A stretch of 44,479 bases of DNA from a virus (Duplodnaviria > Heunggongvirae > Uroviricota > Caudoviricetes), in the IMG/VR virus record IMGVR_UViG_2526164662_000049. One strand, 5' to 3'. A program made the translations under genes and the position numbers. Below, in pieces: positions 7,846-8,601 of the stretch; position 1 is the stretch's first letter, and each line of letters opens with the position of its first letter. A model generated the notes under the pieces. The model was not told where the DNA came from. It searched no databases and saw only the letters and a list, made by a program, of their open reading frames with translations.

Positions 7846-7870
7846 TAAAAAACCCGCCGGGTGGCGGGTT
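7846..7870 (-). terminator. rho-independent terminator after 79 aa insert gene
   Basis: minus-strand hairpin cccgcc/ggcggg followed by T-run. Confidence 0.5.
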
Positions 7871-7886
7871 CATTATTGAAGTTTCA

Positions 7887-8126
7887 TTACTGCTTGTTTG
7901 CTTCTAACGCTTCAGCTATTCGGCGAAGATACTCATTGTTTTTAAATGAAACCATGATGCACTCAAAGAATATTCGGCAAAATACAGCACATAACAAAAG
8001 CACTAAAGCGCCAGCAGCCTTCCCATTAACAAACGTTATAATGGCGGCAACAACCAGAAGTAACATTGTGATGCCATACAGAACGTTGATGATTTTTGGA
8101 GTTATTAATTTATCAAATCCGAACAT
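7887..8126 (-). CDS. small inner-membrane protein (two predicted TM helices), inserted cargo gene
   Basis: 79 aa, two hydrophobic helices; own sigma70-like promoter upstream and terminator downstream; lies inside tail module. Confidence 0.5.
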   Translation of the reverse strand: MFGFDKLITPKIINVLYGITMLLLVVAAIITFVNGKAAGALVLLLCAVFCRIFFECIMVSFKNNEYLRRIAEALEANKQ

Positions 8127-8163
8127 GTGACAAATTCCTTATCGTGAAAGTAGAAGTATCACA

Positions 8164-8191
8164 TTATAATTACGAGTGATTAATCAACAAT
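8164..8191 (-). promoter_or_regulatory. sigma70-like promoter (TTGTTG-N16-TATAAT) for 79 aa gene
   Basis: consensus -10 TATAAT with 16 bp spacer read on minus strand. Confidence 0.35.
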
Positions 8192-8265
8192 CTTTTTGCA
8201 TGGAAAGGAACCGATGATTTTCGGTGCATCCATGCTGTTCTGCAGAAGCTGGACGCCAATGTAAT

Positions 8266-8601
8266 TCACTTCACCTTCCGGCAATCATACGTCCAGAACT
8301 CCCGAGGCTCGTCCATATTTTTGCGGATAACTTCAACGTTGAGGATCGCTTTTTTGTTTCGTTTGATGTAGTCCATACCTAACCAACGTCCAGTATTAGG
8401 ATCAGGTAACATCCATTGCATCATGACATTATCGAAATCGTCTTTTTGTTTCAAAAAGGTCATTTTTTGTGTTTCTGGCTTTTGACCATTGATGTGCATG
8501 AGGCCATCATTACCAGCATCAAAGCGGAATGGTCCGCACTGCGTTGCCGCCGAAACTGTTAACGGCAGGGCCAAGAATAAACAAAAAAATACTTTTTTCA
8601 C
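8266..8601 (-). CDS. secreted small protein with cleavable signal peptide, inserted cargo gene
   Basis: 111 aa; N-terminus MKKVFFCLFLALPLTVSA-ATQ; GTG start overlapping stop (GTGA) of upstream tail gene; two Cys in mature part. Confidence 0.55.
   Translation of the reverse strand: MKKVFFCLFLALPLTVSAATQCGPFRFDAGNDGLMHINGQKPETQKMTFLKQKDDFDNVMMQWMLPDPNTGRWLGMDYIKRNKKAILNVEVIRKNMDEPREFWTYDCRKVK

What the first reader, a model, noticed from the sequence alone, without database searches (positions are those of the whole stretch)
7846..8601. Two-gene insert inside the baseplate cluster: secreted 111 aa protein plus 79 aa two-helix membrane protein
Two small genes interrupt an otherwise contiguous tail operon, between the hub-like and spike-like genes. 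The first (8266-8601) begins with GTG overlapping the stop of the upstream tail gene (GTGA) and encodes a protein with a classical signal peptide (cleavage after VSA, no lipobox) and two cysteines. The second (7887-8126) has its own near-consensus promoter (TTGTTG-N16-TATAAT) and terminator and encodes a two-helix membrane protein. Local base composition is more AT-rich than the flanking tail genes. An exported host-cell protein is not expected to be a virion part, so this pair may act in the lysogen, for example in superinfection exclusion or as a toxin/immunity pair. Function is unknown to me; this is the strongest candidate for an undescribed system.
Basis: partly seen in the sequence, partly recalled or inferred. 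Interest (0 to 1): 0.75.

Follow-up and report, generated by a model that had tools for sequence, protein, structure and literature searches.

The report
Accessory-gene hotspot between tail hub and spike
The two small genes are real but are not a pair: one is a variable exported protein that sits after the tail hub in most related prophages, and the other is a swappable add-on gene in a slot where relatives carry over twenty other cargoes, so this is an ordinary kind of prophage add-on site holding two proteins of unknown function.

Summary
Both ORFs exist as described, inside the baseplate cluster of a complete lambdoid prophage of the SEN34 type with a contractile tail. They are not one two-gene insert.

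- **The 111-aa gene (8266-8601):** this is the catalogued STY1065/STY2022 family (phrog_3443), function unknown. It is predicted to be a periplasmic eight-stranded beta-barrel with a signal peptide and two conserved cysteines. A homologue directly follows the hub in 75 of 86 related loci. Its alleles are only 27-70% identical while the adjacent hub stays 96-99% identical. Where it is missing, another predicted exported protein or lipoprotein usually takes its place. A Hafnia prophage and cyanophage Pam3 lack it altogether.
- **The 79-aa gene (7887-8126):** this is a DUF4282 two-helix membrane protein and a genuine add-on gene (moron). It fills a slot bounded by the 3' end of the exported-protein gene and a conserved terminator before the spike. 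Relatives carry at least 20 other cargoes there, including YafO and Phd/Doc toxin-antitoxin pairs and DUF2335.
- **Independence:** DUF4282 also occurs right after tape-measure genes in unrelated prophages, and the two genes assort independently.
- **Recombination scar:** a 3' remnant of another exported-protein allele lies at 8177-8254.

Function is inferred only. The most likely role is envelope-level exclusion of incoming phages. I rate this a new member of a known kind, of moderate interest.

The parts
8598..9632 (-). Baseplate hub gene (344 aa), forming the upstream border of the variable junction.
   Evidence: Pfam E217_GP41 at 1.4e-7 and phrog_196 'baseplate hub' at 8e-80. Its 3' part co-varies with the 5' end of the spike gene across the junction (AMI 0.84).
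8266..8601 (-). Compartment 1: exported 111-aa protein of the STY1065/STY2022 family (phrog_3443). Residues 1-18 are the predicted signal peptide. The mature 93 aa is predicted to form a periplasmic eight-stranded beta-barrel with C22 and C107.
   Evidence: ORF with a GTG start and a 4-nt overlap with the hub stop. phrog_3443 at 7e-48. RefSeq family name. AF2 model with pLDDT 87 and 8 strands. Signal-peptide architecture kept in 103 of 107 unique members, and two mature Cys in 106 of 107. A homologue follows the hub in 75 of 86 loci.
8177..8254 (-). Recombination scar: the 3' remnant of a different allele of the exported-protein gene. It reads ...VQLLQNSMDAPKIIGSFPCKKIVD* within ORF 8180-8284, and it doubles as the left border of the cargo slot.
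   Evidence: 86-90% DNA identity to the 3' ends of the intact alleles in L003, L004 and L001. The peptide matches the C-terminus shared by those alleles. The sequence is identical upstream of DUF4282 in E. coli loci where that allele is intact (L042).
8163..8190 (-). Candidate sigma-70 promoter of the DUF4282 gene. The -35 TTGTTG is at 8190-8185, the spacer is 16 nt, and the -10 TATAAT is at 8168-8163, ending 36 nt before the ATG. The -35 lies in the last codons of the remnant gene.
   Evidence: Read directly from the sequence. My own scan scores it 9 of 12. The tool scan did not list it because the -35 matches only 3 of 6. The Hafnia homologue has TTGATG-16-TAAAAT at the same distance. Activity has not been tested.
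7887..8126 (-). Compartment 2 cargo: a 79-aa DUF4282 protein. It is predicted to be a two-helix hairpin in the inner membrane, with a conserved cytoplasmic N-terminal motif, a conserved R51/E55 pair in helix 2, and a conserved C-terminal helix.
   Evidence: Pfam PF14110 at 1.2e-10, above the curated cutoff. phrog_12129 at 8e-48. AF2 model with pLDDT 86 and helices 10-33 and 37-78. Conservation pattern. Hydropathy. The cassette is at least 99% identical in 84 of 5426 E. coli genomes.
7850..7871 (-). Intrinsic terminator hairpin (GAACCCGCC-ACCC-GGCGGGTTT followed by a T-run), 23 nt upstream of the spike ATG. It is the conserved right border of the cargo slot.
   Evidence: Listed by the terminator scan. 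The segment 7816-7873 is conserved at 82-91% in loci with other cargo. A homologous hairpin is present in 70 of 86 loci regardless of cargo.
7075..7827 (-). Central spike gene (250 aa), forming the downstream border of the junction.
   Evidence: Pfam Gp138_N at 1.3e-44 and the Apex motif.

Best explanation
The hub-spike junction of this SEN34-type contractile-tail module is a two-compartment hotspot for accessory genes. The two genes are independent occupants of it.

**Compartment 1.** This starts 0-26 nt after the hub stop and here overlaps it, so it is probably co-translated with the hub. It almost always holds a gene for a predicted exported protein. In this window that gene is the STY1065/STY2022-family protein: a cleavable signal peptide followed by a 93-aa soluble eight-stranded beta-barrel, probably closed by a C22-C107 disulfide. 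The gene exists as many very divergent alleles next to a nearly invariant hub gene. The alleles are exchanged by recombination, and one such exchange left the scar at 8177-8254.

**Compartment 2.** This is a cargo slot. Its left border is the conserved 3' end of the compartment-1 gene and its right border is a conserved terminator just before the spike. In this window it holds a DUF4282 gene with a plausible sigma-70 promoter of its own. That makes it a classic moron: a self-contained transcription unit that can be expressed from the repressed prophage. The late tail transcript would have to read through the terminator, presumably through lambdoid antitermination.

**Function (inferred, not shown).** Both proteins most likely act on the cell envelope to keep out incoming phages.
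- DUF4282 would sit in the inner membrane with both termini in the cytoplasm and interfere with channel formation or DNA entry by the tail tip and tape measure. This would resemble HK97 gp15 or T4 Imm.
- The beta-barrel would act in the periplasm on an incoming tail tip or on an envelope component.

**How likely each step is.** The hotspot and moron architecture: about 0.85. The two genes being functionally independent: about 0.9. An anti-phage exclusion function: about 0.35-0.4 for DUF4282 and about 0.3 for the barrel.
For: **Architecture**
- A survey of 86 related loci shows the hub-spike interval is 417-1999 bp and never empty.
- 75 of 86 loci have a homologue of the exported protein as the first gene.
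- In 11 further loci the first gene is another predicted exported protein: a 241-aa protein with an LTSC lipobox in 7, an 84-aa signal-peptide protein in 2, and a 158-aa signal-peptide protein in 2.
- There are at least 20 different second-slot cargoes. They include YafO plus a partner, Phd/Doc (Fic/DOC at 1.5e-10), DUF2335, an Arc/Ant-like set and a weak PycTM-like membrane protein.
- The slot borders are conserved across cargoes.

**Allele behaviour**
- Exported-protein alleles are 27-70% identical beside hubs that are 96-99% identical.
- The scar of another allele is still present.

**Not a virion part**
- The signal peptide is kept in 103 of 107 members.
- Two family representatives fuse the barrel to an N-terminal lipoprotein domain.
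- The gene is absent from a Hafnia prophage whose module is otherwise the same.
- In Pam3 the hub gp19 and spike gp20 are adjacent genes, and the baseplate structure is complete with six components (PMC9942802).

**DUF4282 as mobile cargo**
- It sits in the same slot in Erwinia, Hafnia and Pectobacterium.
- It sits directly after tape-measure genes in a Klebsiella sipho-type prophage, in Edwardsiella phage GF-2 and in a Salmonella element.
- It sits after a lysis cassette in Pantoea.
- In all six contexts examined for this it is followed by a hairpin and T-run.
- The region is low in GC.

**Analogy**
- HK97 gp15 is a small inner-membrane moron in the tail operon, next to the tape measure. It blocks genome entry, and that block depends on the tail region of the incoming phage (PMC3594210).
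Against: - There is no expression or phenotype data of any kind.
- The promoter match is weak (-35 is 3 of 6) and at chance frequency for this region. The Pectobacterium and Erwinia copies have no comparable promoter, so DUF4282 may be expressed only with the late operon in some phages.
- Neither protein matches any PADLOC defence model or any known exclusion family in Pfam.
- The conserved parts of DUF4282 are predicted to face the cytoplasm and the periplasmic loop is tiny and variable. That does not fit a simple periplasmic contact with an incoming tail.
- Exported-protein alleles do not co-vary with the tail fibre (AMI 0.13). This argues against receptor masking matched to the phage's own fibre.
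- Placement next to tail-tip genes may simply reflect permissive insertion sites.
Confidence: 0.55

Rival explanations
1. The two genes form one inserted unit whose products work together, for example as a toxin-immunity pair or a two-component superinfection-exclusion system.
For: - The genes are adjacent, both are AT-rich, and both products are directed to the envelope.
- The pair recurs in E. coli, Erwinia and Pectobacterium.
Against: - The genes assort independently. The exported protein occurs with more than 20 other cargoes, and DUF4282 occurs with three exported-protein allele groups.
- DUF4282 occurs with no exported protein in Hafnia. It also occurs alone after tape-measure genes, after a lysis cassette, and in chromosomal contexts.
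- A remnant of a different exported-protein allele lies between the two genes in this window. Their present neighbourhood therefore arose by recombination.
Confidence: 0.04
2. The exported beta-barrel is a host-fitness (lysogenic conversion) factor or a late-cycle envelope factor, not an anti-phage protein. It could be a periplasmic binding or protective protein comparable in role to lambda Bor or Lom. Alternatively it could protect progeny or modulate the envelope at lysis.
For: - Its position in a tail operon matches that of the classical envelope morons (own knowledge: lambda bor and lom).
- The calycin/avidin-like barrel is a typical small-ligand or protein-binding fold.
- Translational coupling to the hub suggests late expression rather than expression in the lysogen.
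- There is no co-variation with the fibre.
Against: - Extreme allelic diversity beside a conserved hub, together with non-homologous replacement by other predicted exported proteins and lipoproteins, fits an arms-race target better than a housekeeping benefit.
- The family is confined to this prophage lineage, with only 56 representative clusters among 1.84 billion proteins.
Confidence: 0.22
3. DUF4282 is a membrane-active effector, not a passive block on DNA entry. It could be a holin- or pinholin-like protein, or an abortive-infection protein that depolarises the membrane when triggered.
For: - It has two transmembrane helices with a charged C-terminus and N-in/C-in topology, like class II holins (own knowledge).
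- There is a conserved Arg/Glu pair inside helix 2.
- One homologue lies just downstream of a lysis cassette.
- Other cargoes in the same slot are toxin-antitoxin-type systems.
Against: - No holin, toxin or defence model matches it.
- The prophage already has its own lambda-family holin, endolysin and spanin.
- It is a single gene with no visible antidote or sensor partner.
Confidence: 0.13
4. The 111-aa protein is a conserved tail, baseplate or assembly protein, so the hub-spike region is a normal structural operon.
For: - It is present after the hub in 75 of 86 related loci and in several genera.
- It is translationally coupled to the hub.
- Pbunaviruses also have a gene between hub and tip: E217 gp42 and Pa193 gp43.
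Against: - The Sec-type signal peptide is conserved across the family and lipoprotein fusion forms exist.
- The gene is absent from the Hafnia module and from Pam3, whose baseplate structure is complete.
- It is replaced by unrelated predicted exported proteins in 11 loci.
- E217 gp42 is unrelated and has no signal peptide. Its Pa193 counterpart gp43 is not among the 21 gene products the Pa193 study identified.
- 27-70% identity beside a 97% identical hub is not how a structural partner of the hub behaves. The spike N-terminus, by contrast, does co-vary with the hub.
Confidence: 0.06

Closest known systems
HK97 gp15 moron (superinfection exclusion; Cumby et al. 2012, summarised in PMC3594210)
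   Same: - A small inner-membrane protein.
- Encoded by a self-contained unit inside a tail operon, next to the genes whose products cross the envelope. DUF4282 homologues sit right after tape-measure genes or between hub and spike.
- Atypical base composition.
- Absent from close relatives.
   Different: - No sequence relationship: gp15 is YebO-like and this protein is DUF4282.
- Predicted two-helix hairpin topology.
- The host tail is contractile.
- Exclusion has not been tested here.
T4 Imm (Pfam Imm_superinfect family) (own knowledge)
   Same: A protein of about 80 aa with two predicted transmembrane segments, thought to block DNA entry at the inner membrane.
   Different: - No Pfam match to that family at E up to 0.1.
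- T4 Imm is an early gene of a virulent phage, not a prophage moron.
Lambda bor/lom, and the receptor-blocking lipoproteins T5 Llp and Cor of phi80/N15/HK022 (own knowledge; Cor is mentioned in PMC3594210)
   Same: Small exported envelope proteins encoded within or beside tail genes of phages. They are not virion parts, and some act as exclusion factors.
   Different: - The 111-aa protein has no lipobox and is predicted to be soluble in the periplasm.
- No homology.
- No co-variation with the tail fibre (AMI 0.13), which a receptor blocker matched to the phage's own fibre would be expected to show.
Defence and accessory-gene hotspots of P2-like phages and P4-like satellites (Rousset et al. 2022; own knowledge)
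   Same: A fixed junction between conserved phage genes that carries many alternative cargoes in different isolates, including toxin-antitoxin-type systems.
   Different: - The junction is different (hub-spike in a SEN34-type tail module).
- It has a two-tier layout, with a near-obligatory exported-protein gene ahead of the free slot.
- Most cargoes here match no known defence model.
Pfam DUF4282 (PF14110) and the RefSeq 'STY1065/STY2022 family phage-derived protein' / phrog_3443
   Same: The two proteins are clear members of these catalogued families.
   Different: Neither family has an assigned function. A full-text search found no paper mentioning DUF4282, and the only hits for STY1065 and STY2022 were unrelated astronomy papers.

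Membership tests
Moron (Juhala/Hendrix sense), applied to the 79-aa DUF4282 gene | Present at a junction where closely related phages lack it | tested here: met
   About 21 of 86 related loci carry DUF4282 in the slot. The rest carry other cargo.
Moron (Juhala/Hendrix sense), applied to the 79-aa DUF4282 gene | Own promoter | tested here: inconclusive
   TTGTTG-16-TATAAT ends 36 nt before the ATG and scores 9 of 12 with a perfect -10. It falls below the scan tool's criteria, and such hits occur at chance frequency. A similar element lies at the same distance in Hafnia but not in Pectobacterium or Erwinia.
Moron (Juhala/Hendrix sense), applied to the 79-aa DUF4282 gene | Own terminator | tested here: met
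   A hairpin and T-run at 7871-7850. Every DUF4282 homologue examined is followed by one. In this junction, however, the terminator belongs to the slot border and is shared by other cargoes.
Moron (Juhala/Hendrix sense), applied to the 79-aa DUF4282 gene | Base composition differs from the surrounding genes | tested here: met
   GC is 37-38% over 7900-8260 against 49-54% in the spike gene.
Moron (Juhala/Hendrix sense), applied to the 79-aa DUF4282 gene | Expressed from the repressed prophage | not testable with these tools
   This needs RNA-seq or 5'-RACE on a lysogen.
Moron, applied to the 111-aa gene | Present at a junction where closely related phages lack it | tested here: not met
   A homologue follows the hub in 75 of 86 loci and in five other genera. 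It has no promoter or terminator of its own and overlaps the hub stop. It is absent only in more distant modules: Hafnia and Pam3.
Pfam DUF4282 (PF14110) | Score above the curated gathering threshold | tested here: met
   42.2 bits against 27, covering profile positions 2-85 of 86.
STY1065/STY2022 family / phrog_3443 | Full-length profile match and the family name given in RefSeq | tested here: met
   phrog_3443 at 7.4e-48 over residues 2-111. The identical protein WP_000755137.1 carries that name in RefSeq. The NCBIfam HMM library held here gave no hit.
   The genes assort independently across 86 loci, and DUF4282 occurs in other prophage types.
Virion or baseplate structural protein | Present in all related tails and lacking an export signal | tested here: not met
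   The signal peptide is conserved in 103 of 107 members. The gene is absent in Hafnia. Pam3 hub and spike genes are contiguous and its structure is complete. Unrelated predicted exported proteins replace it in 11 loci.
Virion or baseplate structural protein | Detected in purified virions | not testable with these tools
   No virion proteomics was found for SEN34-type phages.
Known superinfection-exclusion families (T4 Imm / Imm_superinfect, YebO / HK97 gp15) and PADLOC defence models | Sequence homology | tested here: not met
   At E up to 0.1, Pfam returned only DUF4282 and a sub-threshold YbhQ match. PADLOC returned nothing for either protein.
Known superinfection-exclusion families (functional class) | Blocks infection or DNA entry when expressed | not testable with these tools
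   This needs plating and DNA-entry assays.
Receptor-blocking lipoproteins (Llp/Cor type) | Lipobox, and specificity matched to the phage's own receptor-binding protein | tested here: not met
   The window protein has no lipobox: the sequence is VSA|ATQC. Exported-protein allele against fibre type gives AMI 0.13. Some replacement genes and two fusion forms do carry lipoboxes.
Periplasmic lysozyme or transglycosylase inhibitors (MliC/PliC/Ivy) | Sequence or fold match | tested here: inconclusive

The most novel reading that the evidence does not exclude
The gene directly after the hub may encode a new class of periplasmic factor directed at tail tips. It would be a hypervariable secreted beta-barrel, replaced in some phages by unrelated lipoproteins. 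It would bind the spike, hub or tape-measure tip of incoming contractile-tail phages, or an envelope component they need, and so set exclusion specificity among competing SEN34-type prophages. The downstream slot would supply a second, freely exchangeable layer of defence, in which DUF4282 would be a new inner-membrane blocker of DNA entry associated with tape-measure and tail-tip genes in both sipho- and myo-type prophages.
Probability: 0.15. Interest if true: 0.65.

Novelty: new member of a known kind. Interest (0 to 1): 0.4.

Why it matters
If the inference holds, this junction is a compact and easily recognised place to look for new envelope-level anti-phage genes in a prophage lineage found in about 6% of complete E. 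coli genomes (313 of 5426), as well as in Salmonella, Klebsiella, Pantoea, Erwinia and Pectobacterium.

It would give first functions to two orphan families: DUF4282 and STY1065/STY2022. It would also offer a natural set of highly divergent alleles for mapping what a periplasmic exclusion factor recognises on a contractile tail tip.

This is one quasi-fixed variable gene plus one swappable moron, not a new two-gene system.

Tried and rejected
- **Profile searches:** Pfam, NCBIfam and PADLOC gave nothing for the 111-aa protein. PADLOC gave nothing for DUF4282 or for the alternative cargoes, apart from one weak PycTM-like hit.
- **Whole-library profile search:** this found only 56 representative clusters. 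Two long repetitive proteins in the list look like low-complexity noise.
- **Literature:** there were no papers mentioning DUF4282, and the only hits for STY1065 and STY2022 were unrelated astronomy papers. The SEN34 paper has no data on these genes.
- **An ancient conserved gene between hub and spike:** rejected. E217 gp42 is unrelated and has no signal peptide, and Pam3 has no gene there.
- **Receptor masking matched to the fibre:** not supported, because exported-protein alleles do not co-vary with the fibre.
- **An outer-membrane beta-barrel (Lom/Ail-like):** rejected. The mature part is only 93 aa and strongly hydrophilic (GRAVY -0.9), and it lacks a C-terminal aromatic residue.
- **An ORF-calling artefact:** my automatic ORF picker preferred an antisense ORF (89-113 aa) over DUF4282. 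I treat this as an artefact, because the sense ORF has the family matches.
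Full report
**1. What is there**

The tail genes lie on the minus strand. In order they are:
- tape measure with a lytic transglycosylase domain (10591-12618)
- Dit-like protein (9941-10591)
- Pam3-gp18-type plug (9635-9937)
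- baseplate hub (8598-9632)
- the 111-aa ORF (8266-8601)
- the 79-aa ORF (7887-8126)
- Gp138_N/Apex spike (7075-7827)
- sheath initiator (6722-7075)
- Baseplate_J protein (5523-6722)
- DUF2612 wedge protein (4846-5526)

The 111-aa ORF starts at a GTG that overlaps the hub stop (GTGA) and has a GGAG just upstream. The 79-aa ORF is followed by a strong hairpin and T-run at 7871-7850. It is preceded by TTGTTG (8190-8185), a 16-nt spacer and TATAAT (8168-8163). GC falls to 37-42% across both genes.

The window as a whole is a complete prophage with a lambdoid (Rac-like) early region and a contractile-tail structural module. It lies between pphA and yebY. This is the type represented by Salmonella phage SEN34, an inducible temperate myophage (PMC5261728).

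**2. Both ORFs are real genes from catalogued orphan families**

- The 79-aa protein is a DUF4282 member: PF14110 at 42 bits against a cutoff of 27, and phrog_12129 at 8e-48.
- The 111-aa protein matches phrog_3443 at 7e-48. RefSeq now names the identical protein 'STY1065/STY2022 family phage-derived protein'.
- Neither family has a known function, and I found no relevant paper.

**3. The 111-aa protein**

Its homologues (134 clusters at 90% identity) are confined to Enterobacterales. A profile search of 1.84 billion representative proteins finds only 56 clusters.

Among 107 unique full-length members:
- 103 keep a Sec-type signal-peptide layout even though that segment is not conserved in sequence
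- 106 have exactly two cysteines in the mature part

**4. It is not an insert**

A homologue of 110-118 aa directly follows the hub in:
- other E. coli prophages and phages
- Pantoea and Erwinia
- Salmonella SEN34 and Klebsiella Mulock
- Pectobacterium

I collected 86 loci that contain both the hub 3' end and the spike: 80 from an IMG/VR scan plus those above. In 75 of them a homologue of this protein is the first gene after the hub, starting 0-26 nt after it.

In 11 others the first gene is a different predicted exported protein:
- a 241-aa protein with an LTSC lipobox (7 loci)
- an 84-aa signal-peptide protein (2 loci)
- a 158-aa signal-peptide protein (2 loci)

Only a Hafnia prophage goes straight from hub to DUF4282 to spike. 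In cyanophage Pam3, whose baseplate structure is complete with six components, the hub (gp19) and spike (gp20) are adjacent genes (PMC9942802). In Pbunaviruses the gene between hub and tip (E217 gp42) is unrelated and has no signal peptide. Its Pa193 counterpart is not among the gene products identified in the virion (PMC11456595).

The protein is therefore accessory, not structural, yet it is a near-fixture of this lineage.

**5. Hypervariability and a scar**

Alleles of this gene are 27-70% identical, while the adjacent hub gene is 96-99% identical. At least nine allele groups occur beside one hub type and three beside the other.

The hub 3' part and the spike 5' part co-vary strongly across the junction (AMI 0.84), as expected for interacting proteins. 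The exported-protein allele does not co-vary with the tail fibre (AMI 0.13).

In the window, 8177-8254 is 86-90% identical to the 3' end of a different allele and still reads ...VQLLQNSMDAPKIIGSFPCKKIVD*. In E. coli loci where that allele is intact, the sequence from there to DUF4282 is the same as in the window. The present hub plus 111-aa allele was therefore joined to a pre-existing DUF4282 cassette by recombination.

**6. The 79-aa gene is cargo in a defined slot**

The slot lies between the conserved 3' end of the exported-protein gene and a conserved terminator just before the spike. A hairpin of the ACCCGCC...GGCGGGT type with a T-run is present in 70 of 86 loci whatever the cargo.

The 86 loci carry at least 20 different contents:

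| Cargo | Loci |
|---|---|
| Unknown 260-aa + 140-aa pair | 25 |
| DUF4282 | about 21 |
| DUF2335 membrane protein | 6 |
| YafO toxin with a 192-aa partner | 5 |
| Unknown 170-aa protein | 4 |
| Phd/Doc pair | 1 |
| Arc/Ant-like set | 1 |
| Others | remainder |

The DUF4282 cassette is at least 99% identical in 84 of 5426 complete E. coli genomes. Relatives of the spike occur in 313.

DUF4282 homologues also occur in other places:
- directly after tape-measure genes in a Klebsiella sipho-type prophage, Edwardsiella phage GF-2 and a Salmonella element
- after a lysis cassette in Pantoea
- in non-phage chromosomal surroundings

In the six contexts I examined for it, the gene is followed by a terminator-like hairpin.

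This is textbook moron behaviour. The promoter is the weakest element. It is only a sequence match with a poor -35, not more frequent than chance. It is mirrored in Hafnia but not in Pectobacterium or Erwinia.

**7. What DUF4282 looks like**

AlphaFold2 (pLDDT 86) gives a helical hairpin with helices at 10-33 and 37-78. Three parts are conserved across 41 homologues:
- the N-terminal motif FDKLITPKI
- an Arg51/Glu55 pair inside helix 2
- the C-terminal FKNNEYLRRIAE helix

The membrane cores and the tiny loop vary. Charge distribution suggests both termini are cytoplasmic. Any partner is therefore more likely to be met within the membrane or on its cytoplasmic face.

**8. Mechanism**

What is shown:
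- a two-compartment accessory hotspot at the hub-spike junction
- independence of the two genes
- predicted envelope localisation of both products

What is inferred:
- Both act against incoming phages. DUF4282 would work at the inner membrane like HK97 gp15, which is a small inner-membrane moron next to the tape measure whose block of genome entry depends on the incoming phage's tail region (PMC3594210). T4 Imm is a second analogy (own knowledge).
- The barrel would act in the periplasm.

The inference rests on position, predicted localisation, the arms-race-like allelic pattern, and the company of toxin-antitoxin-type cargo. There is no homology to any known exclusion or defence protein. I put it at about one in three.

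The rivals are:
- a host-fitness or late-cycle envelope role for the barrel
- a holin-like or abortive-infection role for DUF4282
- a structural role (unlikely)

**9. Verdict**

The kind of thing is well known: morons and accessory-gene hotspots in prophage late operons. What may be new is this particular junction, its two-tier layout with a near-obligatory but hypervariable exported-protein gene, and the link between DUF4282 and tape-measure and tail-tip genes. Interest is moderate.

Noticed in passing
window 8180-8284 (- strand): A 34-aa ORF that is the 3' remnant of a different allele of the exported-protein gene. It is a recombination scar, and its last codons contain the -35 element of the DUF4282 promoter candidate.
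   Followed up: yes
window 7630-7827 and 8598-9200; loci L019-L098: The first ~200 nt of the spike gene and the 3' part of the hub gene fall into matching types (AMI 0.84), even though the variable junction separates them. The rest of the spike gene (7000-7630) is 95-97% identical across types. This fits co-adaptation of the hub-spike interface.
   Followed up: partly
window 1810-2610 and 2607-2900 (+ strand): An Acyl_transf_3 (O-antigen acetyltransferase-like) gene downstream of the tail-fibre assembly gene is split into two ORFs, covering Pfam profile positions 3-233 and 248-319. It is probably a disrupted lysogenic-conversion gene. A Pantoea relative has an intact Acyl_transf_3 gene at the same place (L005).
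   Followed up: partly
loci L023, L034, L059 and others (25 loci), between the exported-protein gene and the spike: The commonest cargo of the slot is an unknown gene pair of about 260 aa and 140 aa, with no Pfam or PADLOC match. The second protein has an R..YY..YH-type helical N-terminus. It is a candidate unknown defence or toxin-antitoxin-like pair.
   Followed up: partly
loci L035, L038, L040, L067, L069, L072, L093; L022, L029; L036, L041: Where the STY1065/STY2022-type gene is missing, the first gene after the hub encodes another predicted exported protein: a 241-aa protein with an LTSC lipobox, an 84-aa Thr/Cys-rich signal-peptide protein followed by a 113-aa signal-peptide protein, or a 158-aa signal-peptide protein. 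This is non-homologous replacement within the same functional class.
   Followed up: partly
L010 (Edwardsiella phage GF-2) 4001-6316: In GF-2 the DUF4282 gene directly follows the tape measure. After it, inside the tail module, comes a small island with Arc-like regulators and an Ant anti-repressor. This is another accessory island within a tail operon of this lineage.
   Followed up: no
window 1517-4503, 21921-23946, 29946-31980 compared with L099: Compared with the near-identical prophage of E. coli LWY24 at the same pphA/yebY site, the window differs in three blocks. These include the tail-fibre region, where LWY24 has a pinE invertase and alternative fibre ends and the window has a 382-aa fibre plus the acyltransferase. 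The pattern is typical module mosaicism.
   Followed up: no
L099 32598-35108 (LWY24 prophage early region; the window counterpart was not checked): The related prophage carries hokD and a gene set of ATP-binding protein, STAS-like protein and hypothetical protein in its early region. These are further possible accessory or defence cargo outside the finding.
   Followed up: no
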